Source: a virus
DNA length: 64,000 nt
IMG/VR virus record: IMGVR_UViG_3300024999_001421
Direction: 5' to 3' (one strand)
This document shows, piece by piece, positions 1,053 through 57,897 of this stretch; position 1 is the first letter of the stretch, and every line of letters begins with the position of its first letter. The position numbers and the translations under genes were made by a program. The notes beneath the pieces are model-generated. The model was not told the origin of the DNA and ran no database searches. It saw only the letters and a program-made list of their open reading frames with translations.

Positions 1053-1994
1053 ATGGCAGATAACGCCTTAGAAATGATTATCCCTAGGACAAACGAAAAC
1101 ATTCAGACAGCGCAGCAATTTCAATACAACCAAGACCAAATCAATACTATTAGGGAAACGGTTGCTAAGGGTGCAACAGACACGGAACTTAAAATGTTCC
1201 TGCACCTTTGCCAAAAATACAATCTCGATCCTTTTCTCAAGGAAATATGGTTCGTTAAACGTGCTAAAAAAACCAAGGATAAAAACGGCAATTGGGACTA
1301 TCGGAGATTACCGGACGGAAATATAGACTATACCGGCGCTGAAACTATGATAATGACCAGTCGAGACGGCTATCTAAGAGTGGCTCAGGACGATATTAAC
1401 TTCAACGGAATTAAATCCTTCACAGTTAAAGAAGGTGACGTTTTTGAGGTTGACGCACAAACAGATCAGATTGTTCATAAGTTCGGACTTAAACGTGGTC
1501 GCATATTAGGCGCATGGTCAGCGGTTTATCATAAGCAACGCAGACCAGTAATATGTTTCGCTGAGTTCTCCGAGTATAACGATGATAAGTCAACAACATG
1601 GAAAAAATACCCATCCGCTATGATTATGAAAGTAGCAGAAGTATTTGCACTAAAACGTCAATTCGGTATCAGCGGATTAACTACCCAGGAAGAATTGACG
1701 GCAGTAGCGGAGCAGGAAAATATCATTGAAATATCGCACGAAAAACCTATTGAGATTACGGGAACCGCGGAAACGCCGCAACCAGTCAATTGGCCAGCAT
1801 TTTGGGCAGGAGTCAAGTCAAAGCTTGGTTATAGCGAAGATGATGTTCATGGTATTGCCAGTGCTATGCGCAAAACACAGATTACCAGTCTTTCGGATTG
1901 GTCGCGCGAAGAAGTGTCTGAGTTAATGGAAAAACTTAAACAGGTATATGCAGAGGATCAGATAAAACTTAAAGAAATGGAAGGGGATAAATAA
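1053..1994 (+). CDS. bet: phage recombinase, RecT/Bet family single-strand annealing protein
   Basis: GATDTELKMFLHLCQKYNLDPFLKEIWFVK, SRDGY, WKKYPSAMIMKVAEVFALKRQF. Confidence 0.9.
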   Translation: MADNALEMIIPRTNENIQTAQQFQYNQDQINTIRETVAKGATDTELKMFLHLCQKYNLDPFLKEIWFVKRAKKTKDKNGNWDYRRLPDGNIDYTGAETMIMTSRDGYLRVAQDDINFNGIKSFTVKEGDVFEVDAQTDQIVHKFGLKRGRILGAWSAVYHKQRRPVICFAEFSEYNDDKSTTWKKYPSAMIMKVAEVFALKRQFGISGLTTQEELTAVAEQENIIEISHEKPIEITGTAETPQPVNWPAFWAGVKSKLGYSEDDVHGIASAMRKTQITSLSDWSREEVSELMEKLKQVYAEDQIKLKEMEGDK

Positions 1995-17123: not shown

Positions 17124-17638
17124 TAGTATTCCTTTATATGGCGGCAATTTTGACCGGAAATTGGTTAAGTAGTATGTTTGTACCGGTTGAAATTGGCCCA
17201 TTTTTAATAAGTTTAGGAACCTTTACAGTAGGGTCAACCTTTATACTTAGGGATTTGGTGCAGAATAAACATGGAAGATATAAGACGTATACATTTATAT
17301 GCTCAGCACTTCTTTTGTCGCTGATACAGTCGGCAATAATGGGACAAGGTTTGCCTGTGGTTATTGCTTCCTCTCTGGCATTTGCGGTGAGCGAGACAAC
17401 CGACACTGAAATTTATACAAGACTTAAATTGCCGGTCCATTGGCGCATCTGGTGGTCAGGTTTTGCCGGAGGTATCCTTGATAGTGCTGTGTTTATCGTA
17501 CTGGGATTATCTCCGCTTGGTATGAATTTTATGCCTTGGTCGGTGGTTCCAATGGCCATAATTGGTCAATCATTGATAAAGTTAATCATGCAGGCAATAG
17601 GGGCAGGTATAATAAAAATCATGGGAGGGCATAGATGA
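17120..17638 (+). CDS. VUT/YhhQ-family queuosine-precursor transporter
   Basis: multi-TM; F.LRDLVQ..G, ASSLAFAVSE..D..IY, DS..F motifs; overlaps TGT-like gene. Confidence 0.85.
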   Translation: MIVFLYMAAILTGNWLSSMFVPVEIGPFLISLGTFTVGSTFILRDLVQNKHGRYKTYTFICSALLLSLIQSAIMGQGLPVVIASSLAFAVSETTDTEIYTRLKLPVHWRIWWSGFAGGILDSAVFIVLGLSPLGMNFMPWSVVPMAIIGQSLIKLIMQAIGAGIIKIMGGHR

Positions 17639-18072
17639 GAAAACCTCTCGCTGACCCATTTAAGCAGGAAAAACAAATAGTCGCTAGCTATCTAGTTAAC
17701 TATTTTGAGATAAAGTTACAGTATGAGCAGGACCGGGAGAGGATACTTGAAAACTCTCCCCCGCCCGCTGACGGTATGCCTCGCGGTAGCAGTGTTGGTA
17801 ATAAAACAGCTAGTGCAGGTATCGCGTTGGCATCATTGGCGGTAACAGGAACATGGCTGCGGGTAGTTAATGAACTGGTAGCAGGTTTGAACGATGATGA
17901 TAAATTGTTGCTAAGATTGAAACGGACGTATGGGGAACATATTAAAGGAAATTCGGTTAAGGAAAGAATTGCTAGAGAATTGAGGGTGAATATAAAAACG
18001 GCGTATAACCGCTGGCAGGGTATATTGGAGAAGGGACAGGAGCTGGCGGTTAAAAGGGGATTGTTGAGGTAG
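17635..18072 (+). CDS. ArpU/RinA-like late transcription activator
   Basis: GMPRGSSVGNKT, C-terminal sigma4-like HTH; last gene of operon. Confidence 0.65.
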   Translation: MRKPLADPFKQEKQIVASYLVNYFEIKLQYEQDRERILENSPPPADGMPRGSSVGNKTASAGIALASLAVTGTWLRVVNELVAGLNDDDKLLLRLKRTYGEHIKGNSVKERIARELRVNIKTAYNRWQGILEKGQELAVKRGLLR

Positions 18073-18100
18073 GCAGGGGAAAGATCCCCTGCTTTTTTAT
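18072..18100 (+). terminator. intrinsic terminator at convergent junction
   Basis: GCAGGGGA-AAGA-TCCCCTGC followed by T6. Confidence 0.8.
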
Positions 18101-18167
18101 GCAAAAAAAATTTACTATTTCCTGGTAGGCGGCTTTTAACGGGTATACCTCCATAAACCGGTGAGAG

Positions 18168-18509
18168 TTAAGCAGTAGCGTCTGTTGATTCGGCAATCGC
18201 GTCGTCAAGCCACTGAATTTCAGCTTGACGACGCTTTTTGTCTGCCTCAACATCGGCAATATACTGTTGGATGCAGAGTAATGCTTCTTTGCGCTGTATT
18301 GGATAATAATTTCTTGCCGGGTGACTGTGGCATTGGCAGGTGCCAAGACCTAGGTCGGAACTGCTGTAACAATTGATTTCTGTAATCATCCATTCGCCGT
18401 CATGGAAATACAGGGATTTTTCGGCAATATTGTCGCCGTACTGGTTGATTCTGGTTTCCAAAACTAAATCTTGACCTGCGCGTAAATTTTCAAGCATACC
18501 TTTTAGCAT
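18168..18509 (-). CDS. hypothetical early protein
   Basis: GGGAGG RBS before MLKGML. Confidence 0.65.
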   Translation of the reverse strand: MLKGMLENLRAGQDLVLETRINQYGDNIAEKSLYFHDGEWMITEINCYSSSDLGLGTCQCHSHPARNYYPIQRKEALLCIQQYIADVEADKKRRQAEIQWLDDAIAESTDATA

Positions 18510-18589
18510 TTCAATTCCTCCCTTAGTTTTTAATCTCCTACCCAACGCCTTCTTGGACGCTTGGCAGGGGATTAAACCCCTGCTAACAA

Positions 18590-18967
18590 CTATTCGACTA
18601 TTTGCGGATGCGCCACTGATTCCCAACCGTCACCTGTCCAGCGATAAGATTCTCCCATTGTAGGGATAACCATATCGCAACCATAGACAGTTTCATGCAC
18701 AAACTTTCCGTCGTAGCGTATAATTTCTTCAAGGATAAAGTCTTTCTTGTGACTTAACTCACTGGTGTTTCCTGATGTGGAAAACCCTGTGCGCTGTAGT
18801 TTTTCCGATCCGCTTCCTGGCATTGTGTACCATTTCGCAACCGGAACCGGCATTGCATCAAATGGACCAACCCTAGATTCCGATCTTTTGCTTTTGGAAC
18901 CACTTTCAGTTGTGTATCCTTCAGCGACCGCATACCACTTTCCGCTAGTTTGAAACATATTCATCAT
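18590..18967 (-). CDS. hypothetical early protein
   Basis: AGGAGG RBS, overlaps upstream gene. Confidence 0.65.
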   Translation of the reverse strand: MMNMFQTSGKWYAVAEGYTTESGSKSKRSESRVGPFDAMPVPVAKWYTMPGSGSEKLQRTGFSTSGNTSELSHKKDFILEEIIRYDGKFVHETVYGCDMVIPTMGESYRWTGDGWESVAHPQIVE

Positions 18968-19119
18968 TTTTCCTCCTTCGCCGGTTCTCCCGGCACTAAT
19001 TTTTTAACCACAATCTCGCTAATCCCCTTCCCTTCAAATGCCGCCTGTTCGCGTAGTTTTTCAGCAAGCGACTTAGGGAAGGTTATGCTGATACGTATTT
19101 TGTCTCTCGGTATGGTCAT
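18964..19119 (-). CDS. ribbon-helix-helix regulator
   Basis: KIRISITFPKSLAEKLREQAAFEGKGISEIV. Confidence 0.75.
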   Translation of the reverse strand: MTIPRDKIRISITFPKSLAEKLREQAAFEGKGISEIVVKKLVPGEPAKEEK

Positions 19120-19340
19120 ACTTCCCATTTCCCTTCGGTCACGCATAGTATTTGACCAACGGAATCGGAACAAAGGTGTAGAGAACGGTATAATTTAGCT
19201 GTTTCCTCGCGGTTTCTGCCGAGATAGCGCGATGCTTCAACTGCATCACGGAAACTTTTAACAACATTGTCGTTGCGCTGTGGGAGTGCTTGGAATTTTC
19301 TCTCCCAATTACAGGTATCGAAAACTTGCTCTAACGTCAT
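19116..19340 (-). CDS. hypothetical protein
   Basis: AGGAGG RBS before MTLEQV. Confidence 0.6.
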   Translation of the reverse strand: MTLEQVFDTCNWERKFQALPQRNDNVVKSFRDAVEASRYLGRNREETAKLYRSLHLCSDSVGQILCVTEGKWEV

Positions 19341-19361
19341 GGTATGCGCCTCCTTTTGCTT

Positions 19362-19403
19362 AGGTGATGCACTTATTATATAGCTTAGTGCATCACCTGT
19401 CAA
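19362..19403 (-). promoter_or_regulatory. consensus sigmaA promoter with 12-bp inverted-repeat operator
   Basis: TTGACA-17-TATAAT; AGGTGATGCACT (19362-73) / AGTGCATCACCT (19387-98) flank the -10. Confidence 0.85.
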
Positions 19404-20478
19404 GCAAAAAAAATATTAAAGTTTAGCCATAATTTCCGACATTGCATATTTGATATTGTTTAACTTACTTTGCTCTATATCAATCAGGTTAACGAGTGCT
19501 AATGTATCCTCGCTGGACATATTATATTTACCGGACAATTCCCAGACTAACTTTTTAATCTCTCCAAGTCTGGATTGCTTTAGTTCATCGAAGCGTTGCG
19601 GTTGTGGTTTTGGTTGATTAGGATTAATCACTGTACCACCTCCACCCACTCTGCCGCTCTAAAATGCTCTGCCGTCCACTGACAGGCATCCAACGGCGAA
19701 GTTCCCCAGACTTCCTTCCGATCCACCCCAGCAGGGATAGTAGTTTTGCCTATGCGTAAGTCGGGGAAATGGACTGACAATCGGTATTTGCTTAACCCAG
19801 GTGTATTTGTACCTGTCGGCGTTTTGCCCCGCTGTATCGGGTTGCTAGACGTGTTTATGGTCATTGTGTTGCCTCCAATGTGCTTTCCTCTAACATCTTC
19901 CTAAGTTCCCTCGCCACGTTACCCAAAGCATCCGACTTACCACGATAATAACCTTCTAGGTACTCTTGGTTATTACGTTTCATTATTTCCATTTCGGTCT
20001 TAGCATTTATAGAACTCGTGGCGTAGTTTTGGATTAAAATCTCTATGTATTCCCGCATATAACGACCTCCCTCATAGTATTGGGGTAATCCCCTCCCGAA
20101 ACCCTCCTGCTAGAGAGTTTAGGCAAGGGACGTTAGTCCCTGCAATTATCCTGTAAGATGCAAATACCAAATTGATCTACCAGACTTATATCTTTTGTTT
20201 TCCTTGGTTACAAACTTAGTAACTTTAAACCTTACATAATTACTTCCATCCCTTCTAACACTGCCCGAAATGTTATTTCCTTTCATATACTTTTTTACTG
20301 CCTCGGTTGCATTTTTAGCTATTACTACCGCATCATCATTAAATAAACCTTTGTTTCCATCATAGATTAAATATGTATTAGTCATAAATCTAACCCCCTT
20401 TTAATTTTACCAAAATCCCCTCTTGTGACACTTTGGTAAAACTGCGGCGTTAAGGTGCCGCTTGCCTCATACTTGTTG

Positions 20479-21111
20479 CTAATCCAGTAAACGTGTTAAT
20501 TTATTTCCCTTGAATGGCTTTAGCGTTTCACTATCGTTCCACCAATGCCATTCTCCCCCGAAAAGTTTAGGAATGAAAATTTGCTGTTCTTTGTCTAGTG
20601 TGTACCTAAGATTATCCATATCAAGTGAAAATGTTTCCATGTCCTTCTGCATCTTTTCGCCTTGAATAATTCGCGCCCTCTGGATTTTAACCCTGCCGGT
20701 TTTTGTGTGACTGATAACTACTACAAGTGATTCTTGTGTCGTGTAGTACCAGTCCTTAACCGCAAAACCGTTTATTTTTAATATTTCCTGTGCCTTCTGT
20801 AAAGCTGTTTTGCCGTCCTTGTCGGTTGTCGGTTGTGCTGCGCCTATCGGTAATAGGTTGTTAATGTCTGTGGTATTACTTCCCTTTGTGCTACCGTTGC
20901 GAGCAATCTTTAAAACTCTAACTTGAGTAAATGTAGAGTAACAATAAATATGGTCAATGCGGTAAGTGCCGTTCCACTCCTTGACCTGGCACTCCTGACC
21001 AACCTTCCAACCGTCGAACTCCTGCACATATCCAGTTTTGACCTCTTGCCGTGGTGCTGTTGCTGTGATAATCGGCATTTGAGCGTTAGAGAAATTTATT
21101 ATCTTTGTCAT
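20479..21111 (-). CDS. hypothetical early protein
   Basis: 210 aa ORF, AGGAGG RBS. Confidence 0.7.
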   Translation of the reverse strand: MTKIINFSNAQMPIITATAPRQEVKTGYVQEFDGWKVGQECQVKEWNGTYRIDHIYCYSTFTQVRVLKIARNGSTKGSNTTDINNLLPIGAAQPTTDKDGKTALQKAQEILKINGFAVKDWYYTTQESLVVVISHTKTGRVKIQRARIIQGEKMQKDMETFSLDMDNLRYTLDKEQQIFIPKLFGGEWHWWNDSETLKPFKGNKLTRLLD

Positions 21112-21209
21112 GGTATGACCTCCTATGTTATAATATCGGTGGACATATATTTTCCCTGCTCCCCGGTTTTACTGCTCACAACAGCTACCGGGGAGTTTGA
21201 ATTTGTATA

Positions 21210-21836
21210 TTAACAGGCGTATTTTCCCAGTACGGTTTTAGTTGTATTTTCCTTCCAGTTTGCGCTATTTATTATCGACCAATGTTTATTATAGCCGTTA
21301 AAATGCCTCAATAAATGGAGTATTTCGCGGTTATCCTGATCTACCCATAAGGAAAAGTTAGGGTATTGCTTGCCCTCGCTTTTTTCCAAGGCGTAAAAAT
21401 AGGCTTTAATTTCCTCTGCGCGGGCGGTAAGTTCTGCGTTAAATTTGAATTCATCCCCGAAGTTATGACCCTCGCGGTCTTTAAAAACTCGATAACCGGC
21501 CAAGTCAGGAAGAATAACAACCTCGTCAAAACTGCAACCCAGAGAATTTACAATACTGAGAATTTCGGATTTGGTGTACTTAAAAGTTTTGTGTCTCATA
21601 CTGACGATGCTGTGCTTGTTACAATCGTCGTCATTATGGATATAATGGCAATGGTCAACTATCCCGGCAAAGGTAAATTGTTTAACGCTTTTGACGCTGT
21701 TTTTGGTTACTTCAAAACCAGACATTTCTAAGTAGATTGCCTCCCCTTTGTCATTGTGAAAAGCTGTTCTAATGCGGCAATTTTCAACCATTCCGCGCGG
21801 TACGCATCCGGCACCTTCAAAATATAAAGTTTTCAT
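21210..21836 (-). CDS. hypothetical early protein
   Basis: GGGAGG RBS before MKTLYFEGAGC. Confidence 0.7.
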   Translation of the reverse strand: MKTLYFEGAGCVPRGMVENCRIRTAFHNDKGEAIYLEMSGFEVTKNSVKSVKQFTFAGIVDHCHYIHNDDDCNKHSIVSMRHKTFKYTKSEILSIVNSLGCSFDEVVILPDLAGYRVFKDREGHNFGDEFKFNAELTARAEEIKAYFYALEKSEGKQYPNFSLWVDQDNREILHLLRHFNGYNKHWSIINSANWKENTTKTVLGKYAC

Positions 21837-22484
21837 AATTTTAGCCTCCCTCATAGTTTTAACTAAACCCTCTCGCAAAAGGATTTAGGTAAAACTGCGA
21901 CTTTAGGTAGTCGCGGACCTGCTACCTAGTCCAATATTTCCTTTGATTTTGCCATAAACTAAATGCCTGAGATTCGGTTGGAGCAATGTTAAGTAAGGAA
22001 TTATAATTGTAGTAATTGCCCGACCTTCCTATTTTTACTTGAAGTAGGAATTTATTACCATATGAAAATACGGTGAATATATTTTTAAAACTCTTGAACT
22101 CGTTTACTATCATAATATCCCTCCTATATTTACCTCAACAAAACCCCTCTCTAAAGGAGTTTTGGCGAAGCAGGGACCGGAGTCCCTATTCCTTGCACAT
22201 CCCAGAAACTTGTCGCTTGTGTATTTGCATTTCTATAGTAGCAAGTTCCAAGTATGCTTCTACTTTTTGATCCCAATGTGCCGGGACTTGCGGATCGTTG
22301 ACAATTTCCAGAATTTCAAGCGCATCCTTCTTTTCTTGCAGTATTTCTGAATCTTGAAGCGTCTCAAGGTGCTTCCAAATAGATTCCATGAATATTACTT
22401 TTTCCTCAAACATAATTATCATCCTCCTTAGATTTTACGTCCAACCCCTACAGGGACCAGAGGTAAAACCTAGCGAGTGCTAGG

Positions 22485-22808
22485 TTAGTGCCTGCCATAT
22501 TCTATGGTTAATTCTAAAGTGTCCTTTTCGACATCTCTCCTTAATTTTGCCGTACTCCTACAGTCTTTATTTTCCTCTTTCCAATCAATACCCATTTGGC
22601 GAAAATATAATGTTACTTCGGTCAAATCACCCTTAAGCAAGTCCTTCCATGTGTAGTCAAAGAAAATTAACAAGTCTGTACAGTAGCAGTCGCATTGCTT
22701 AACCGCTTCGCGCAGTAACGCTTCTTTTATCGACTGCGTGTTTTGTTCTTCACCGTAAGAATTGCAAACCTGAAGTTCCTTAATGTTTACTTTCGGCATA
22801 ATCATCAA
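22485..22808 (-). CDS. hypothetical early protein
   Basis: AAGGAG RBS. Confidence 0.65.
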   Translation of the reverse strand: MMIMPKVNIKELQVCNSYGEEQNTQSIKEALLREAVKQCDCYCTDLLIFFDYTWKDLLKGDLTEVTLYFRQMGIDWKEENKDCRSTAKLRRDVEKDTLELTIEYGRH

Positions 22809-23027
22809 TCTCCTTTTAGTTTAAATTCACGTCAATTCCCTTGTGGGTACTCACGCAAACCTAAACTACCATGCTTCCCCTTTTCTGCACCTCTAGCGGA
22901 TATCCCTTCGGGTCCAGTGTTCGCTTGCCTTGGCTGGCCCTTTCGGATTATGCCGACTTCGCTGGTTCGCGCTGTGGGGTTTTTGTATTCTTTTCTGCGT
23001 GTGCGGTGCGCTTTGTTGCTGTGGTTT

Positions 23028-23085
23028 CCCACTATGGCCACTTTCGGCCATTTCGACTTGTTACCGTCAAGTCTCGTCAGGTGGG
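23028..23085 (-). ncRNA. type I hammerhead ribozyme (HH2)
   Basis: CCCAC CUGACGA GACUUG-acgguaa-CAAGUC GAAA UGGCC-gaaagu-GGCCA UA GUGGG; all core nucleotides and three stems present. Confidence 0.93.
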
Positions 23086-23086
23086 T

Positions 23087-23371
23087 TTATGCTGTCCTAT
23101 AGTGTTCAATCGCTCCTGTGCTAAGTTGCATTAACAGGTTTGTCATGTGACTTAACTTCCAACTTTCTACTAGACTTGAAGTTCCGAACAATCTGTCTAT
23201 TGCTACATATCTTCCGTACCAAACCATTAGTTCGATTGGGTTTTTTCTATTTTTGGTGTAGTAGTCGAAGTTTTCATTAAACTTTCTTGCCGCCAACTCC
23301 AGTTCTTCCTGTAATAATGCGTTTTCAGCTTTGTTTAGTTTTTTTATGCTGATGCTTTCGGCTGTTTTCAT
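23087..23371 (-). CDS. hypothetical protein bracketed by two hammerheads
   Basis: 94 aa, AAGGAGG RBS. Confidence 0.75.
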   Translation of the reverse strand: MKTAESISIKKLNKAENALLQEELELAARKFNENFDYYTKNRKNPIELMVWYGRYVAIDRLFGTSSLVESWKLSHMTNLLMQLSTGAIEHYRTA

Positions 23372-23423
23372 ACTGTCTGCCTCCTTCGATATTCTGTTTT
23401 CGTGTTGTGCAGCTTACTTTCAT

Positions 23424-23474
23424 CCTGCTATGGGGTTTTATCCCCATTTCGCTGTCTACAGCTCATCAGGCAGG
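23424..23474 (-). ncRNA. type I hammerhead ribozyme (HH1)
   Basis: CCUGC CUGAUGA GCUG-uaga-CAGC GAAA UGGGG-auaaaa-CCCCA UA GCAGG. Confidence 0.93.
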
Positions 23475-23874
23475 CTAGAATTTAATGCTGTGAAATACGC
23501 AGAAGTTGCAAAAGTCGATTAACTTAGTTCTGTTTAGGTTTACCGCTTTTTCTAGTCCTACCGATTTGGTGTACTGCTTGATTTTGCGCTTTAGCTGTTT
23601 GGTCATTTTGTTTCCCCCTTATTTAATTTGTAGCTAATAAGTAACCCATGTATCCGATTCCTACCAGGAGAGCGATTCCCATTCCTACCGGGTGAAACAT
23701 TGTAGTTACTGCTAATGCTGTGGCGGTGTATTTAAGAAGTTTTTTCATGTCTGCGCCTCCCGTTCGTGTGTTGCTGTGTTCCATGTGCTTATACTATCAT
23801 CTGGATACCCATGCCGTAAAGCCTCAAATAACCTTATATTCAGCCATTTATGGGTATCCAGATTATCCTGCCTG

Positions 23875-24075
23875 CTAAATACTAGCTGTATCTGCCTTTT
23901 TCAGCGTTTTTTGAAGTTCCGCAAGTTCTTTTTTGATAGCATTTCTGGCTATTTCGGATGCTGGAACCCGCGTATCTGCTGATATTTCGGCTAGTTTTGC
24001 TTTATCCTCGGTTGACAGGCGCAGGTTAAAACTTTCCCAGCCATCTCTATATTTTTCTTTTCTTTTTGCCGACAT
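23875..24075 (-). CDS. ribbon-helix-helix regulator
   Basis: SFNLRLSTEDKAKLAEISADTRVPASEIARNAI; GGAGG RBS. Confidence 0.75.
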   Translation of the reverse strand: MSAKRKEKYRDGWESFNLRLSTEDKAKLAEISADTRVPASEIARNAIKKELAELQKTLKKADTASI

Positions 24076-24335
24076 TTTGACCACCTCCAAAGACAGTATA
24101 CTACATGGGCTTCCATATGGCAACCCAGCCATTAGACGGATCTGCATTTGCCGGAAATGCTATATATAGAAGGAAAACGGAAAGTTTTGCTTGAAAATGG
24201 GCTTTGGCCGTGGTAAAATGGTAGTGTGGGGGTTTTATACCATGTTGTTTTTACCTACTGTATTGAGTAGGGATATATCGTTTTCGAGGCACCTGAGAGG
24301 GTGCTTTTTGCTTTACATAGAAGGAAGGTGAATTT

Positions 24336-24854
24336 GTGTCTGACAAAGATATTGTTTTACAGGAGTTCGCCAAAACGGTGAATCGTTTGAAATCAAAGGG
24401 CGTTGACTTGACAAATACCTATTATGGTTTCCGCGAGGATATTTCCGAAGAGCAGGATCGCGTTCTCTGGCAGCCTGAAAAGAAATTCGTAAAAGTTTTT
24501 CCTGACGAACTGGCTAATGTTGTAACGATGCTTGACGATGAAGGAAAACGCCTCAGCGGTGCAGAGCTGGCTATTGTCATGTTGCTCATGGGACATATCA
24601 GCTACAACAGCGGAATGTTGACAAAAGGCGGCGGTAACCCGGTTAGTCAATCAGACATTGAAAAGATTACCGGGTTTAATAGGATTACCGTTGTTAAGAG
24701 CATGGACAGGTTAGTTCGTAAAAAAGTTTTCGCTCGTAACAAGGTAGGCAAAAGTTATCAATACTTCGCAAATCCGTACATCTTTTTCCGGGGCCGGTTT
24801 ATAAACGCGACTCTGGTGGATATGTTTAAAACCTACAACGCTAATGATAGTTAG
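24336..24854 (+). CDS. RepL-like winged-helix protein
   Basis: SQSDIEKITGFNRITVVKSMDRL...YFANPYIFFRG. Confidence 0.7.
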   Translation: MSDKDIVLQEFAKTVNRLKSKGVDLTNTYYGFREDISEEQDRVLWQPEKKFVKVFPDELANVVTMLDDEGKRLSGAELAIVMLLMGHISYNSGMLTKGGGNPVSQSDIEKITGFNRITVVKSMDRLVRKKVFARNKVGKSYQYFANPYIFFRGRFINATLVDMFKTYNANDS

Positions 24855-46982: not shown

Positions 46983-49900
46983 GTGATTTTATTGGCCTAC
47001 GATTTATACAAAGGGCCGTATAGTAACTTTAATTCATACAGTCAAAGTAGAGATACTTCCAGGGAAGATGCCATTAGAAGGTTGCTTAGTTTTTCGAGCA
47101 ACCAACAAATAACTAACGATCCTGGCATGGCAGATGTAGATTATAGCACTACAATGCCTCCTGTACCGGAAATGAAAGTACCTATGCCACCTAAAAGAAG
47201 TCTATATGAATCTCTGGATAATAAATTTGGCGGGGTGTTGCCGGGAGGTACTATATTTAAGCCAGGAGATTACGGAATAAGCGAAAAGTTTGCGGAAAAT
47301 AACCCAACTATTAGTCGGGGATTAGCGACGATTGCTAGTCCTTTCAAGGCTATCATGGATAATCCATTTATGAATCGTTCAAGTCAAACTGCTGGGGAAA
47401 TCGTTACATTAACCGACAGGCCAGAAAAGACTTCTACCGGTAATGATAACAGGGACATGATTGCCGATTTAGTTGGTGGACTTGTTGGTTTTGGTGCTAA
47501 TCCTGAGAGCGCAGGGGCAAAACTATTTGGACTTAGCGAAAAAGCTATAGCTAAAGGATTGCAGTATATCCCCAAAGCTGAAAATTTGCCTAAAATATTG
47601 CAAACAGGTGCTAAGATTGGCGGGGCGACAGTCCCGTATGAAGCAACCGTAGCGGCACTGAACGACCGTGAATTTAAACCGGGAGAAGCGGCAGAGGCAG
47701 GCTTGTCTAATGCTGCCCTGGCTATGCTATTACATGGTGCAGGGAGTGCCTTAAGCAAACGCAATACACCGCCCAAAACTACTGATTTTAAGATGCCTGA
47801 GTATAAAGAACCGGATATGTCAGATTTTACGCCGGAGGAACTGGCTAATTTCAGGAGTAAGTCAAGTCTTGGGGAGATGATAACTCCTGAGACAGTCACC
47901 ACTAAAGAGGTAGCGGCGGCGCAGAGAACGCTTAGAAATACGCTGAATGTCGAAAAGGCCAATCAGATACTAAACGAATTCCCGGAACTTGAAAGCGAGT
48001 TTCCGCACTTTAGACTACAGCAAGGCGATACAGTTATTCTGCCAAATGGAAAAGAAGCAATAGTTAAAACAGCGGACAAGATGATTATTCAAGTTGATGT
48101 TGATGGAAAGACGGTTAGTATTGGTCGTAAAGTCGTTAAGGTTCCGGAGGTTAAGACAGAAGTTCCGGAGGTTGTGAGTGAGGCAATGCCGGAAGTGCCG
48201 GAGACTACGACTCCTGAGATTAAACAGCAACCCGTTATTAGCGATGTTCCGCGACTAAATAACAGAAGTGGTGCCGAGACTTTTGCTGACGAAAATATAC
48301 CTGATGTATCAGTCAAGCAGGAACCAATTGTCGCGCAGGAAATATTGCCGCAATTAACAGGCGAACCTGTTAAATTAACAGCAGAACAGCAACAGTCGAT
48401 AGATAAGTTAGTCAAGGATTCTGGATTCAATTCCCTCGAGGATGCTCGAAAGGCAATAACATCATATAGAAATATGGTTAATGACGGACAGGTATTTTAT
48501 CGTGGGGAAATGGTTCCAGAGGGAGCAAAAGGTAAGAAAAATAATATTATCCGTCAAAAAAGCATAGAAGATGTTCTTAATTGGACTCCTGATAATCTAA
48601 TCAAGAAGCATGAAGCAAACATAGCAAGACAAGAAAATATAAAGGAAAAGGCACAGGAAATTCTTGATACTACTGATCCGCTTAAGGATTACGGTAAACG
48701 CGACAATGCTAAAATGGAAATAGAGAATTCTAACTATTGGATTGGTAATTATCAAAAGGAGATTGATAAACTTAGGAAGCAGATAAAAAATGACGAAGAA
48801 ATAAGTAAGATAGCAGAAGAAAACAATCTCCTTTACATTACAAGTCAAAAAGAAAATGCCCTGTCTTATGCTAAGCAACTCGAAGGTAAGTCTGAAATAT
48901 TATTTGGAGAGAAGCCAGAAGGCTATAACCCAACCGTGTATGAGTTAAAAGGAAAATTTGACAATACTTTTGACTTGACTAAGTATGAGAATGGTCTAAT
49001 AAGTTTAGACGAAGTAGATAACCTATTAAACGACTTAGGAATTAAGCTAGATGATAAGCAGTTTAACGAATTTATAAATAGACTTGGTATTGATGAAATG
49101 GAACAGAATAGCGGTCAAGTATTTGGTCTATTCCGTGGTGAAAACCTTCCTATCATGCTTAATGCGCTTAAAAAAGGTAAATACGATTCGGTTCATTATG
49201 CGGAAGGATTGCAAGATAACTGGATCGTCTTAGATAGAAATAAGGTTGCTATTAAGGATGATTTAGATAAGGCAAGTAAACTTGATTCTGTAACGCAAGA
49301 CAAGATACTTAGATTTAAGTCTGGGCAGGACAAACCAGCACCTCCCGAAGTATTAAAGGACTATCCTGAGTTATCCGCAGAAGTAGGAAGTAAGTCTACA
49401 TCGGAAACTAAAGTCATGGCAGAGGATATCGGACTAAAACCGGAAAAAGCGGAAACTTATGACGAAGGGACGATTGGGGCGGCAAGGTTAACCGTACCGG
49501 AAAAGCAATCAACTCTCCCCGGTACTGACGAAAAAGTCAGGTCGTTTAATGTTTCCGTTGCTAATTCTGAAATAGCTTCTCCGGACGTTAAAATAGCCAA
49601 TATTATGGAAATGTATCCAGGAGGACTAGGGGCATATAGCCCCATAAAACTACGTGAGGTAGACGTTGAAGCACAAAATTTAATTTCCCAGAACATAGAA
49701 AAGGCTACTCGCTTTGTTCTTGAAGGAGAAGAACCTTCTGCACTTAAAACAGCAACAGGTATTCGTTTAATTGAAAAATACCAAAACGCCGGTAATTACG
49801 AGAGGGCCATAGATGTTTCGCTAGCTATGGCAGAGAGACTAACGAAAGTTGGTCAAGAAATTAGTGCCGCTAGAATTATGGGGGCACTAAAACCTGATGG

Positions 49901-51959
49901 TATTTTAGTTTTTGCACAACGACAAATAAATAAACTTAACAGCGGTAAAAAATTCGGTAAGGACATTGAATTAACTCCCGAAATGGCTAAAATACTAAAG
50001 GAACTTGCCAATAGACTTAAAAATGCAACCGATGAAAATGCCAGATTGGAGGCAGGTCAAGAATTACAGGGAGCACTGAATTCTCTAAAACCTTCTGGGA
50101 TACTTAGAAAAATAGATTCGGCGCAAACCATTTCGATGTTATTAAATCCTAAAACTTTAATTAGGAACACAGTTGGCAATGAAATGTTTTATCGCCTAGA
50201 AAGGTTAAATAAAATAGTTGCTACACCTATTGACTGGACAGTTAGTAAACTGACCGGAGCAGACCGCCAGGTAACATTTAGAACGGCTGGGCAAGGTGGT
50301 TACTGGCAGGGATTTTTCAAGGGCGCAAAAGCTGGTTGGAAAGGTGTTAACCCAGAAGGTATACAGACACAATACGACTTGGGTCGATCACCGGCATTTA
50401 ATATTAATCCCGAAAGAGCTAAAAACGCAAATACGACAACTGGGAAAGTTGTTGGTGGCACATTTGATTTTGCTGAAAAAACTATGGCTTATCTTGAAAG
50501 AACTCTAGGTGCAGCCTTGAAAGGTTTTGATTTTGCGGCATATACCAGGGCAAAAAATAACACTATTGGAGAACTAGCTACCTTAAAGGCTATAAATACT
50601 ACTGGAAAAGCTGATAAGACTATAGTACAGGGGTTTATGAAAGATATTGAGGATAATGTCCTGAATATTGCTGACCAATATGGAAAATATGTTACATTTC
50701 AAGATAACAATGTTATTTCTCGTGGACTACAAGGAGTAAAGGATGCCTTAAACATAAATCAGGATTGGGGTGTAGGGAGTGTTATTCTTAAATTCCCACG
50801 CACACCGGGGGCTTTAATAGCAAGAGGATTAGAATACTCGCCTGCTGGCTTTCTAAAGTCTGCCTACGAACTAGCAAAAGTAACAGGTATATTTAAGGGC
50901 AATCCTAGTCAAAGAGAAACAACACTTGCGTTATCAAGGGCCATAACTGGCACAGCAGGATTAACTGGATTAGGTTATTTTCTTGCCGATCAAGGAATTA
51001 TAACAGGTTCAATAGAAAAAGATAAAGACCTAAGAGATTTACAGCGACAGACAGGGCAAGGACAATATCGTATAAATCTAAGCGCATTATCTAGGTGGGT
51101 GCAAAGCGGTTTTAATAAAGATACTGCGCAACCTATTGCTGGTGATAAAATAATTAACTATGATTGGGCGCAGCCAATTGCAATGGCACTAAGCATAGGC
51201 GCAAATATCAGCAAAAACCTTAATGATGGACAAGGCAAACTAGATAATATATCCTCAACTATTGCTGGTAGTCTTGAAGGTGCTTTAAATACAGTTGCCG
51301 AGCAACCTGTTTTGCAAGGTCTTACACGGGCAGTACAAGGATATGATATGGGAGAAAATGTAACCAATACAGTTAAAAATATTCCCTCTAGTTTTGCACC
51401 AACATTAGCTAATCAAGTAAGACAGTATATAGACAATACAACTCGCTCAACATATGACCCCTCATGGGTAGAGGAATCGAAAAATAAAGTTAAAGGCAAA
51501 ATACCGGGAATTGCTGGCAACTTGCCTGTCGCATATGATACTTTCGGAAAACCGAAGGAAATATATCAAGATGGAGGTAATGATGCTTTCAATGTATTCT
51601 TTAATCCAGCATTTACATCGAAATACAAAGTTCCAGAAGAAGCGAAGTTGGCCATAGAAACATTTAGAAATACCGGAGAAACAAAGCAACTACCTAGAGT
51701 TGCATCTAAGTCATTTACTATTAGTGGGCAAAAAATAGAACTAACTGCCAAAGAATATAGCGATATGCAAAGGATTGTTGGAGAAAGAACACTAAAAGAA
51801 TTTTCCAGAATACCGCAAAATGCTAGTGATGACAAAAAGATACGCAGGATGATCGATGCTTTAGGTAAAGCCGGACTAGAGGGCAGAAAATTTGTATTAC
51901 AACAAAGGGGTATTGGCTTTAGGAATAAGGGCAATGGGATAGTGCTTAGACAACAATAA
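46983..51959 (+). CDS. large internal virion/ejection polyvalent protein with ART-like domain
   Basis: 1658 aa; FYRG...LYITS...ALSYA...VYEL...FDL...KYDSV; helical C-terminal half (MLLNPKT.IRN, FPRTP). Confidence 0.7.
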   Translation: MILLAYDLYKGPYSNFNSYSQSRDTSREDAIRRLLSFSSNQQITNDPGMADVDYSTTMPPVPEMKVPMPPKRSLYESLDNKFGGVLPGGTIFKPGDYGISEKFAENNPTISRGLATIASPFKAIMDNPFMNRSSQTAGEIVTLTDRPEKTSTGNDNRDMIADLVGGLVGFGANPESAGAKLFGLSEKAIAKGLQYIPKAENLPKILQTGAKIGGATVPYEATVAALNDREFKPGEAAEAGLSNAALAMLLHGAGSALSKRNTPPKTTDFKMPEYKEPDMSDFTPEELANFRSKSSLGEMITPETVTTKEVAAAQRTLRNTLNVEKANQILNEFPELESEFPHFRLQQGDTVILPNGKEAIVKTADKMIIQVDVDGKTVSIGRKVVKVPEVKTEVPEVVSEAMPEVPETTTPEIKQQPVISDVPRLNNRSGAETFADENIPDVSVKQEPIVAQEILPQLTGEPVKLTAEQQQSIDKLVKDSGFNSLEDARKAITSYRNMVNDGQVFYRGEMVPEGAKGKKNNIIRQKSIEDVLNWTPDNLIKKHEANIARQENIKEKAQEILDTTDPLKDYGKRDNAKMEIENSNYWIGNYQKEIDKLRKQIKNDEEISKIAEENNLLYITSQKENALSYAKQLEGKSEILFGEKPEGYNPTVYELKGKFDNTFDLTKYENGLISLDEVDNLLNDLGIKLDDKQFNEFINRLGIDEMEQNSGQVFGLFRGENLPIMLNALKKGKYDSVHYAEGLQDNWIVLDRNKVAIKDDLDKASKLDSVTQDKILRFKSGQDKPAPPEVLKDYPELSAEVGSKSTSETKVMAEDIGLKPEKAETYDEGTIGAARLTVPEKQSTLPGTDEKVRSFNVSVANSEIASPDVKIANIMEMYPGGLGAYSPIKLREVDVEAQNLISQNIEKATRFVLEGEEPSALKTATGIRLIEKYQNAGNYERAIDVSLAMAERLTKVGQEISAARIMGALKPDGILVFAQRQINKLNSGKKFGKDIELTPEMAKILKELANRLKNATDENARLEAGQELQGALNSLKPSGILRKIDSAQTISMLLNPKTLIRNTVGNEMFYRLERLNKIVATPIDWTVSKLTGADRQVTFRTAGQGGYWQGFFKGAKAGWKGVNPEGIQTQYDLGRSPAFNINPERAKNANTTTGKVVGGTFDFAEKTMAYLERTLGAALKGFDFAAYTRAKNNTIGELATLKAINTTGKADKTIVQGFMKDIEDNVLNIADQYGKYVTFQDNNVISRGLQGVKDALNINQDWGVGSVILKFPRTPGALIARGLEYSPAGFLKSAYELAKVTGIFKGNPSQRETTLALSRAITGTAGLTGLGYFLADQGIITGSIEKDKDLRDLQRQTGQGQYRINLSALSRWVQSGFNKDTAQPIAGDKIINYDWAQPIAMALSIGANISKNLNDGQGKLDNISSTIAGSLEGALNTVAEQPVLQGLTRAVQGYDMGENVTNTVKNIPSSFAPTLANQVRQYIDNTTRSTYDPSWVEESKNKVKGKIPGIAGNLPVAYDTFGKPKEIYQDGGNDAFNVFFNPAFTSKYKVPEEAKLAIETFRNTGETKQLPRVASKSFTISGQKIELTAKEYSDMQRIVGERTLKEFSRIPQNASDDKKIRRMIDALGKAGLEGRKFVLQQRGIGFRNKGNGIVLRQQ

Positions 51960-57821: not shown

Positions 57822-57897
57822 TGGCTGTGAAGGTAGGTCTCGAACCTACGACAAGTTGATTAACAGTCAACCACTCTACCAACTGAGTTACTCCACA
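57822..57897 (-). tRNA. tRNA-Asn (GUU)
   Basis: TGTGGAG..ACTC AGTTGGTA GAGT..GTTGA CT GTT AA TCAAC..GTAGG TTCGAGA CCTAC CTTCACA G CCA cloverleaf with encoded CCA. Confidence 0.95.

What the first reader, a model, noticed from the sequence alone, without database searches (positions are those of the whole stretch)
23028..23474. Two canonical hammerhead ribozymes excise a single-gene 396-nt RNA that could circularise
Seen: both minus-strand elements have the full core (CUGANGA...GAAA...UH), three intact stems with different sequences, and an AUA cleavage triplet. Each begins right after a stop codon. Predicted cuts at 23429/23428 and 23033/23032 release RBS + the 94-aa ORF. Established: hammerhead cleavage leaves 5'-OH and 2',3'-cyclic phosphate ends, which are RtcB substrates, and hammerheads are known from bacterial/phage intergenic regions. 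Inference: either self-processing of the early polycistron or formation of a stable circular mRNA. The ligated junction (GCAGG vs CCCAC) would not rebuild stem I, so a circle would not recleave.
Basis: partly seen in the sequence, partly recalled or inferred. Interest (0 to 1): 0.8.

Follow-up and report, generated by a model that had tools for sequence, protein, structure and literature searches.

The report
Two hammerhead ribozymes bracket a phage gene
Two genuine-looking self-cutting hammerhead RNA motifs sit on either side of one small orphan gene in a groundwater phage operon; this layout has been described in prophages since 2011, so it most likely chops a long transcript into single-gene pieces, and nothing here supports a circular mRNA.

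Summary
On the minus strand, 23474-23424 and 23085-23028 each carry the full type I hammerhead core. Their stems I/II/III have 5/4/6 and 5/6/7 base pairs. The predicted cuts at 23429|23428 and 23033|23032 bracket a 396-nt RNA holding a ribosome-binding site and an orphan 94-aa ORF. These are the only two descriptor hits in 64 kb; none of 200 shuffles gave a hit this strict. Both fall below Rfam's cut-offs.

The strongest support is comparative. Related groundwater phage contigs carry other self-cleaving ribozymes at the same two junctions: Pistol (46-67 bits) and type II hammerheads (37-41 bits) that pass Rfam's cut-offs, plus type I hammerheads with the same stem I but different stems II and III. 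In five distinct relatives a single small gene is again bracketed by two ribozymes, whatever the ribozyme class or the gene.

Best reading: constitutive self-cleavage sites that cut a polycistronic phage transcript at the borders of a variable gene slot. The downstream site also defines the 5' end of a conserved structured RNA that follows it.

Perreault et al. 2011 already described ribozymes flanking single prophage genes. They raised the circular-RNA idea and did not detect circles. No RtcB was found in the window or in five relatives' records, and no RNA data exist. This is a new member of a known kind. Other first readers of this scan noted this same stretch of the same genome.

The parts
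23424..23474 (-). HH1, a type I hammerhead with core CUGAUGA...GAAA...UA. The predicted cut lies between 23429 and 23428.
   Evidence: Homologues with the same stem I but different stems II and III occur in L052, L079 and L085.
23028..23085 (-). HH2, a type I hammerhead with core CUGACGA...GAAA...UA. The predicted cut lies between 23033 and 23032.
   Evidence: The same junction holds Pistol or a type II hammerhead in relatives.
23033..23428 (-). The predicted 396-nt excised RNA: a 57-nt leader with a ribosome-binding site, the 94-aa ORF, and HH2 (minus its 3' stem I strand) as the 3' end.
   Evidence: Coordinates derived; fold.
23087..23371 (-). A 94-aa orphan ORF, the variable slot gene. It is helical in the ESM Atlas's own model and matches no family.
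   Evidence: It found only itself among 5.8 billion clusters. Atlas search.
23475..23606 (-). A conserved 43-aa ORF (MTKQLKRKIKQY...) whose stop codon abuts HH1.
   Evidence: 86% identical in L013 and L052, and present in L079.
22835..23027 (-). A conserved non-coding structured RNA or leader that begins at the HH2 cut. Its core, 22979..22877, is closed by a CCCC/GGGG helix.
   Evidence: 83-92% identity in relatives while the flanking genes differ. The consensus fold has 29 pairs, 97.8% of cells paired and 8 pairs changed on both sides, and 0 of 500 shuffles reached the covariation score. An 8-nt indel argues against coding. No Rfam match.
23791..23820 (-). A likely operon-internal promoter P2 (TTTACG, 18 nt, TAGTAT) in front of the 53-aa ORF at 23623-23784.
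   Evidence: Read. Relatives have TTGACA-17-TATACT or a similar site at the same place. It falls below the threshold of the scan.
24095..24123 (-). Promoter-like site P1 (TTGCCA, 17 nt, TATACT) in front of the RHH-like gene at 23875-24147, the head of the leftward operon.

Best explanation
Both elements are functional type I hammerhead self-cleaving ribozymes lying within one leftward polycistronic transcript of a tailed phage of about 70 kb. As the RNA is made, each folds and cuts after its A17. The transcript is thereby severed at both borders of a variable single-gene slot. Three pieces result. (i) The upstream mRNA ends in the folded HH1 with a 2',3'-cyclic phosphate. (ii) A 396-nt monocistronic mRNA for the 94-aa orphan protein has a 5'-OH end and carries HH2 as a structured 3' end. 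(iii) The downstream RNA begins with 5'-OH exactly at the start of a conserved structured non-coding RNA or leader. The purpose is inferred: to uncouple the stability and translation of neighbouring cistrons, so that any cassette gene placed in the slot gets a defined 5' leader and a protected 3' end whatever its neighbours. What the sequence shows is the motifs, their folds, their position inside an operon, and the replacement by other ribozyme classes in relatives. Self-cleavage itself and its consequences for RNA stability and translation are inferred.
For: Both sites have the full core and three helices and are the only such sites in the window; none of 200 shuffles matched them. Their minimum-energy folds equal the hammerhead junction. 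They lie on the coding strand, in the two intergenic gaps, with no predicted promoter or terminator between P2 and 22443 on that strand. Junction B, just 5' of the conserved RNA, holds Pistol in L009, L001 and L079 (67, 61 and 62 bits against a cut-off of 34.5). The same junction holds Hammerhead_II in L052 and G005/L076 (41.4 and 37.4 bits against a cut-off of 37). L004 also has a type II hammerhead at junction B; L002/L017/L020 have one at the 3' end of their cassette, where no conserved RNA follows. In these type II elements stems I and III and the loop I-tail pseudoknot covary. Junction A, after the 43-aa ORF, holds Pistol in L013 (60.6 bits). It holds type I hammerheads with the same stem I but different stems II and III in L052 and L079. 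A single gene bracketed by two ribozymes recurs in L052, L013, L002, G005 and L079. Homologous cassette genes carry different 3' ribozymes, Pistol in L001 and type II hammerhead in L076, so the shared property is cleavage, not sequence. In a CheckV-complete relative of 69,948 bp the only ribozymes found are the pair bracketing one gene in this operon. Perreault et al. 2011 showed that comparable prophage triple-hammerhead transcripts cleave in vitro at all sites, and one set also in E. coli, and proposed processing into single-gene mRNAs.
Against: No cleavage assay and no RNA data exist for this phage. Neither element reaches an Rfam gathering score. HH2 has no direct homologue with compensatory changes. 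[quoted passage not shown] HH1 has only a possible 4-bp contact (UCUA just 5' of stem I with loop II UAGA). Several homologues of HH1 have C instead of U at core position 4, a change reported to lower activity in vitro. The benefit of cutting is conjecture, as it is for phage ribozymes in general.
Confidence: 0.72

Rival explanations
1. Circular mRNA. After both cuts, a host RtcB-type ligase joins the 5'-OH and 2',3'-cyclic phosphate ends of the 396-nt RNA, giving an exonuclease-resistant circle that is translated from its internal ribosome-binding site.
For: The end chemistry fits RtcB (established; describes the enzyme). RtcB circularises type I hammerhead monomers of animal retrozymes in vitro at 30-80% (PMC7229834). 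Bracketing of exactly one gene recurs in five relatives. The ligated junction would not rebuild an active stem I, at 3 of 5 pairs. In the predicted fold the 5' CAGG pairs with CCUG beside HH2, which puts the two ends in one multiloop, but a 4-bp match is easily chance.
Against: Perreault et al. looked for circular or spliced products from such prophage arrangements and detected none. The two ribozymes are different, unlike retrozymes and viroids, where the ends rebuild one ribozyme. The RNA is not unusually self-paired (z -1.74). No RtcB was found among the window's ORFs of 300 aa or more or in five relatives' records, one of them complete. L009, L001 and L004 have a promoter on the 5' side, so the same slot works without a 5' ribozyme. 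The host is unknown.
Confidence: 0.07
2. The 3' ribozyme (HH2) exists mainly to mature the conserved structured RNA that follows it by giving it an exact 5' end. Release of the upstream gene as a separate mRNA is a by-product, and HH1 belongs to an independent junction.
For: A ribozyme of some class lies directly 5' of the conserved RNA in all eight distinct relatives that have that RNA. The RNA has a covarying fold. A 5' ribozyme is missing in three relatives.
Against: L002/L017/L020 keep the Pistol-gene-hammerhead II cassette although the conserved RNA is deleted there. L079 has a hammerhead at a junction with no such RNA. The RNA runs without a terminator into the next gene's ribosome-binding site, so it may be only a leader.
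Confidence: 0.12
3. The ribozymes are passengers of DNA-level mosaicism. They would be conserved junction sequences at which related phages recombine, or decaying selfish remnants, with no benefit from RNA cleavage.
For: Homology between relatives breaks at or inside the ribozymes. L001 has a Pistol remnant fused to a promoter. L013's type II stem I has two mismatches. L079's second hammerhead has a poor stem II and a C4 core.
Against: Three unrelated ribozyme architectures occupy the same junction, which recombination linkers cannot explain. The helices keep pairing through compensatory changes, which means selection acts on the RNA fold.
Confidence: 0.07
4. Chance matches to the hammerhead descriptor with no activity.
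For: Both are below Rfam cut-offs. Perreault et al. warn that short consensus matches arise by chance in large databases.
Against: A relaxed descriptor is expected 0.085 times per window and a strict one hit 0 of 200 shuffles, yet two strict hits lie 396 nt apart on the coding strand, both in intergenic gaps. Validated ribozymes sit at the same junctions in relatives.
Confidence: 0.02

Closest known systems
Clustered hammerhead ribozymes flanking single genes or short gene blocks in prophages (Perreault et al. 2011, PLoS Comput Biol, PMC3088659)
   Same: Several hammerheads lie on the coding strand around individual small phage genes whose identity is not constant. The same paper proposes processing of long phage transcripts into single-gene mRNAs and also mentions circular or spliced products.
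   Different: Here both members are type I with short open stems I, in an uncultured groundwater phage. Close relatives show the same junctions filled by Pistol or type II hammerheads, and the 3' ribozyme abuts a conserved structured RNA.
Ribozyme-associated gene neighbourhoods used to discover Pistol, hatchet and twister-sister (Weinberg et al. 2015, as described in PMC4604425 and PMC5737381)
   Same: Self-cleaving ribozymes of different classes sit near each other and near phage genes. Pistol and hammerhead co-occur in these phages.
   Different: The published association is statistical, within several kb. Here different classes occupy the same junction in otherwise collinear relatives. I could not read the 2015 paper, so whether it reports such swaps is unknown to me.
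Retrozymes and viroid-like circular RNAs with hammerheads (for example the animal type I hammerhead retrozymes, PMC7229834)
   Same: Two type I hammerhead cuts release an RNA of a few hundred nt with 5'-OH and 2',3'-cyclic phosphate ends. RtcB can circularise such monomers in vitro.
   Different: Those are tandem or repeated identical ribozymes, non-coding, highly self-paired, and the ends rebuild a ribozyme. Here there are two different ribozymes, a protein-coding insert, no repeat, no rod-like fold, and no evidence of circles.
glmS ribozyme / RNase J1 pathway in Bacillota (Collins et al. 2007, from my own knowledge, not read here)
   Same: Ribozyme cleavage inside an mRNA leaves a 5'-OH end that determines the fate of the downstream RNA.
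   Different: glmS is ligand-activated and destabilises its gene. The elements here have no known ligand, and both 3' products can begin with a hairpin (GUGG-GAAA-CCAC; GCAG...CUGC) that might protect them instead.

Membership tests
Hammerhead ribozyme (type I topology) | Conserved core C3-U4-G5-A6-N7-G8-A9, G12-A13-A14, the A15.1-U16.1 pair, and H17 (not G) at the cleavage site | tested here: met
   Both elements match at every position (CUGAUGA / CUGACGA, GAA, A-U closing stem III, A17).
Hammerhead ribozyme (type I topology) | Three helices around the core, with stems II and III closed by loops and stem I open | tested here: met
   Stems are 5/4/6 and 5/6/7 bp. The minimum-energy and centroid folds equal this junction, z -3.5 and -4.2.
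Hammerhead ribozyme (type I topology) | Helices maintained by compensatory change in homologues | tested here: inconclusive
   The HH1 lineage meets it: L052, L079 (1015-1068) and L085 share stem I (CCUGC/GCAGG) but have entirely different, still paired, stems II and III. No sequence homologue of HH2 was found. Its support is positional only, from other ribozyme classes at the same junction.
Hammerhead ribozyme (type I topology) | Score at or above Rfam's curated gathering threshold for a hammerhead model | tested here: not met
   No hit at gathering. HH1 scores 16.8 bits against Hammerhead_HH9 (cut-off 52). HH2 scores 18.5 bits against RAGATH-1-hammerhead (cut-off 56.3). The type I homologues in L052, L079 and L085 also fail, while type II and Pistol neighbours pass. 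This suggests the models do not cover this short phage type I form.
Hammerhead ribozyme (type I topology) | Tertiary contact that aligns stems I and II (loop-loop contact or pseudoknot) for fast cleavage | tested here: inconclusive
   In HH1, loop II UAGA can pair with UCUA just 5' of stem I, and the same pairing is possible in both L079 hammerheads. L052 has none. For HH2 only a 3-bp match was found.
Hammerhead ribozyme (type I topology) | Mg2+-dependent self-cleavage at H17 | not testable with these tools
   No RNA runs hold this sequence. A bench assay is needed.
Prophage ribozyme-flanked gene arrangement (Perreault 2011) | Two or more self-cleaving ribozymes on the coding strand flanking a single gene or short block in phage DNA | tested here: met
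   The window is phage: terminase, P22-like portal, primase-helicase, RecT, Mu gpT-like head protein. HH1 and HH2 flank one ORF. The same layout occurs in five relatives.
Retrozyme / viroid-like hammerhead circular RNA | Repeated identical ribozymes, so that the monomer's ends rebuild one ribozyme | tested here: not met
   HH1 and HH2 differ in all three stems. The 5' end GCAGG against HH2's CCCAC gives 3 of 5 pairs.
Retrozyme / viroid-like hammerhead circular RNA | Highly self-paired, non-coding monomer | tested here: not met
   The monomer is an mRNA with a ribosome-binding site and a 94-aa ORF. Its fold has z -1.74, and 8 of 100 shuffles fold as well.
Retrozyme / viroid-like hammerhead circular RNA | Circular junction detectable in RNA | not testable with these tools
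   Only DNA runs from groundwater metagenomes hold the sequence.
RAGATH-1 hammerhead variant (RF03152) | An extra 5' hairpin plus a hammerhead with a very short stem II, scoring above 56.3 bits | tested here: not met
   18.5 bits. The 5' hairpin columns are gapped in the alignment, and stem II here is a normal 6-bp hairpin.

The most novel reading that the evidence does not exclude
The ribozyme pair is a device for making a circular, translatable single-gene mRNA in a bacteriophage. Both cuts release the cassette RNA, and a host RtcB-type ligase closes it, giving a long-lived message for a variable accessory protein. Bracketing of exactly one gene recurs in relatives, whatever the ribozyme class, which would fit a need for two compatible ends.
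Probability: 0.06. Interest if true: 0.85.

Novelty: new member of a known kind. Interest (0 to 1): 0.42.

Why it matters
What the many self-cleaving ribozymes in phage DNA are for has been open since 2011. This phage group offers a natural swap experiment. In otherwise collinear genomes the same two junctions carry a type I hammerhead, a type II hammerhead or Pistol. The same cassette gene occurs with different 3' ribozymes. The 3' ribozyme always abuts one conserved structured RNA where that RNA is present. This argues that cleavage itself, at the borders of a variable gene slot, is the selected property. It also yields compact constructs (a few hundred nt) for testing processing against circularisation. 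The two hammerheads on their own are ordinary members of a described arrangement.

Tried and rejected
- Rfam at gathering threshold on the window found only a tRNA. Permissive Rfam scans gave only sub-threshold hits. The weak 'drum' hit at 23598-23691 (19.9 bits, cut-off 43) lies inside a coding region, and I treat it as noise.
- blastn of 22400-24200 against 50,697 GenBank phage records found no match.
- The 94-aa ORF had no relative in IMG/VR, found only itself among 5.8 billion protein clusters, and had no Pfam or PHROG hit. The Atlas look-alikes are unnamed helical proteins.
- The single metagenome scan, with the 43-aa ORF, gave three loci, two of them duplicates of IMG/VR contigs.
- The 16-mer scan of IMG/VR gave mostly chance hits. 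I filtered it by blastn down to eight distinct relatives.
- The genome-contig scan for the HH1-type pattern gave four hits (Chitinophagia, Sphaerisporangium, Obscuribacterales) without convincing stems. I take them as chance, so there is no host lead.
- Sequencing runs: no RNA holder is listed, only groundwater and sediment DNA runs.
- No whole genome is held for the window.
- RtcB (PF01139) had no hit in five relatives' records or in the window's ORFs of 300 aa or more that were scanned with Pfam; the 1658-aa ORF at 46983-51959 was scanned with PHROGs only.
- A relaxed type II descriptor hit at 24376-24512 (+), with stems 3/4/3 inside an ORF, was rejected as chance.
- The MAFFT alignment of the five type I hammerheads was not structure-aware, so I built no covariance model. 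Covariation in the hammerheads was judged from the descriptor output instead.
- Weinberg 2015 and Roth 2014 could not be read.

Full report
**1. The observation**

I read the minus strand of 22850-23650. Two complete type I hammerheads are present.

- HH1 (23474-23424): stem I is CCUGC/GCAGG and the core is CUGAUGA. Stem II is GCUG-UAGA-CAGC, followed by GAA. Stem III is AUGGGG-AUAAAA-CCCCAU, followed by A17.
- HH2 (23085-23028): stem I is CCCAC/GUGGG and the core is CUGACGA. Stem II has 6 bp with loop ACGGUAA, followed by GAA. Stem III is AUGGCC-GAAAGU-GGCCAU, followed by A17.

The cuts fall at 23429|23428 and 23033|23032. The RNA between them is 396 nt. It holds a 57-nt leader with GAAGGAGG, the 94-aa ORF 23087-23371, and HH2 as its 3' end. 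HH1 begins right after the TAG of a 43-aa ORF (23475-23606). HH2 begins 1 nt after the TAA of the 94-aa ORF.

**2. More than chance**

- A descriptor scan of both strands of the 64 kb found exactly these two type I sites.
- It found no credible type II or III site. One weak type II match inside an ORF at 24376-24512 is taken as chance.
- In 200 dinucleotide-preserving shuffles the relaxed descriptor hit 0.085 times per window. A descriptor as strict as the real sites never hit.
- Folded alone, each element's minimum-energy and centroid structure is the hammerhead three-way junction, z -3.5 and -4.2.
- The sequence is identical in two other assemblies.

Rfam does not call either element. Nothing reaches gathering. 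The best weak hits are HH9 at 16.8 bits for HH1 and RAGATH-1-hammerhead at 18.5 bits for HH2. The type I homologues in relatives also fail Rfam, while their Pistol and type II neighbours pass. I therefore read the miss as a gap in model coverage and not as evidence against the elements.

**3. Context**

The window is a tailed phage. It encodes large terminase, a P22-like portal, primase-helicase, RecT, an SMC-like ATPase, ThyX and a Mu gpT-like head protein. A CheckV-complete relative is 69,948 bp.

The hammerheads lie in a leftward block (about 18100-24150) of small orphan genes. The block starts at a promoter-like site at 24123-24095 in front of an RHH-like gene. A second likely promoter lies at about 23820-23791. 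On that strand no promoter or terminator is predicted between P2 and 22443, so both ribozymes are internal to a polycistronic transcript. Whether the operon is 'early' is not shown. The DNA comes from groundwater metagenomes.

**4. Relatives**

Terminase-based retrieval and pattern scans gave eight distinct related contigs. blastn shows a mosaic. Genes differ, short intergenic pieces are conserved, and homology to the window stops at the edges of the hammerhead-bounded cassette.

Junction A lies after the conserved 43-aa ORF.

| Contig | Element at junction A |
|---|---|
| Window | HH1 |
| L052, L079 | Type I hammerheads with the same stem I but different, still paired, stems II and III; core CCGAUGA |
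| L013 | Pistol, 60.6 bits |

L079 also has a canonical type I hammerhead in front of the 43-aa ORF.

Junction B lies directly 5' of a conserved non-coding RNA.

| Contig | Element at junction B |
|---|---|
| Window | HH2 |
| L009, L001, L079 | Pistol, 67, 61 and 62 bits |
| L052, G005/L076 | Hammerhead_II passing Rfam, 41.4 and 37.4 bits |
| L004 | Type II hammerhead by descriptor |
| L013 | Type II-like hammerhead, read by eye; stem I has two mismatches and the descriptor scan did not list it |

L002/L017/L020 have a type II hammerhead (by descriptor) at the 3' end of a Pistol-gene cassette, but the conserved RNA is deleted there.

In the type II elements stem I covaries (UGCCGG/CCGGCA against AGCAGG/CCUGCU). 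Stem III also covaries (CCGC/GCGG against CCGGG/CCCGG). So does the loop I-to-3'-tail pseudoknot (GACU/AGUC, GGCU/AGCC, GUCU/AGAC). This matches the type II consensus of Perreault et al..

A single small gene bracketed by two ribozymes recurs in these relatives:

- L052 has type I / type II.
- L013, L002 and G005 have Pistol / type II.
- L079 has two consecutive genes, each bracketed.

L009, L001 and L004 have a promoter on the 5' side and only the 3' ribozyme. The cassette genes of L001 and L076 are homologous but are followed by Pistol and a type II hammerhead respectively. In the complete genome G005 the only ribozymes found are this one pair.

**5. Mechanism**

Three unrelated ribozyme architectures fill the same junctions, and their helices are kept by compensatory change. 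The selected property is therefore site-specific self-cleavage of the transcript.

All three architectures leave a folded hairpin structure and a 2',3'-cyclic phosphate on the upstream fragment and a 5'-OH on the downstream fragment. In the window both downstream fragments can start with a hairpin that reuses the stem I strand (GUGG-GAAA-CCAC at 23032-23021; GCAG...CUGC at 23428-23409). This would also disfavour re-ligation.

My best reading (0.72) is constitutive processing that severs the polycistronic RNA at both borders of a variable gene slot. It uncouples the fate of neighbouring cistrons and fixes the 5' end of the conserved structured RNA. Cleavage itself and its benefit are inferred.

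**6. The circle**

The chemistry is right for RtcB, and RtcB circularises animal type I hammerhead monomers in vitro. Nothing here points to circles, however.

- The ribozymes are different, so the ends do not rebuild a ribozyme.
- The RNA is an ordinary mRNA in fold.
- No RtcB was found in the window's large ORFs or in five relatives' records.
- The slot works without a 5' ribozyme in three relatives.
- Perreault et al. state they could not detect circular or spliced products from such arrangements.
- No RNA runs exist to test it.

I give the circle 0.06-0.07.

**7. Known or new**

Perreault et al. [quoted passage not shown] They noted that the genes are not constant. They suggested that long phage transcripts may be processed into single-gene mRNAs and that circular products are another possibility. 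A 2019 review repeats the processing idea and calls the function unresolved. Pistol was discovered through its association with hammerhead and twister neighbourhoods in phage DNA. The finding is thus a new member of a known kind.

- the same junctions carry different ribozyme classes in collinear relatives;
- the single-gene bracket recurs;
- the 3' ribozyme is tied to a covarying structured RNA of about 100 nt that is not in Rfam.

Other first-stage readers of this scan noted this same stretch of the same genome, the structured RNA, and the hairpins at the downstream junctions.

Noticed in passing
window 22835-23027 (-), core 22877-22979: A conserved non-coding RNA begins at the HH2 cut. Its multibranch fold is closed by CCCC/GGGG and has many invariant unpaired bases. 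Two helices show compensatory changes (8 pairs; 0 of 500 shuffles reach the covariation score). An 8-nt loop indel excludes coding. It has no Rfam match and runs without a terminator into the next gene's ribosome-binding site. It was found only in this phage group and is deleted in L002.
   Followed up: partly
window 22412-22484, 22112-22186, 21833-21925, 20383-20446, 19357-19415 (-): Short intergenic segments of the same operon are far better conserved among relatives (82-97%) than the genes between them. Each shows a small hairpin, then GUUUUACC-like sequence, then a longer imperfect hairpin before the ribosome-binding site. They may be processing sites, attenuators or recombination linkers.
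   Followed up: partly
window 23014-23023, 23769-23778 and about 23394-23409 (-): A CA-rich motif (CACAGCAACA or a close variant) follows each predicted RNA 5' end: after P2, after the HH1 cut and after the HH2 cut. It also follows promoters in L013, L052, L009 and L004. It is part of a leader shared between cassettes.
   Followed up: partly
L052:2823-2881, L079:1230-1283, L082:6265-6326, L083:7444-7512: Hammerheads of the HH1 lineage (same stem I, preceded by UAG) carry CCGAUGA, that is C instead of U at core position 4, in four separate contigs. U4C is reported to lower activity in vitro yet to suffice in a viroid (PMC3088659). L079's copy also has a poor stem II.
   Followed up: partly
L001 about 1600-1650 (-): A 5' half of a Pistol ribozyme, matching L002's Pistol up to GCGUUCCCC, is fused directly to the -10 region of the P2-type promoter. 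This is a ribozyme remnant left by recombination.
   Followed up: no
window 23021-23032 and 23409-23428 (-): Both 3' cleavage products can begin with a hairpin that reuses the stem I strand: GUGG-GAAA-CCAC after HH2 and GCAG(12 nt)CUGC after HH1. These might block re-ligation or 5' exonucleases. They are not conserved in relatives.
   Followed up: no
L005:11078-11141 (+); L094:10464-10555 (-): Relatives carry other curated RNA motifs of unknown function: RAGATH-18 (62 bits) downstream of the terminase region, and DUF3800-VII RNA (68.7 bits) in the complete relative. Neither was detected in the window.
   Followed up: no
window 57825-57897 (-): A tRNA gene (65 bits) whose anticodon loop reads GUU (Asn) is the only Rfam gathering hit in the window.
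   Followed up: no
window 22485-22808 (-) versus L092 about 17360-17680 (-): The 107-aa gene that follows the structured RNA in the window lies upstream of the Pistol-bracketed cassette in the complete relative. Whole cassettes therefore change order within the operon.
   Followed up: no
whole record: The longest contig carrying the 94-aa ORF is 142,368 bp. A relative that CheckV rates complete is 69,948 bp, about half that. The long contig may be a concatemer or a larger relative.
   Followed up: no
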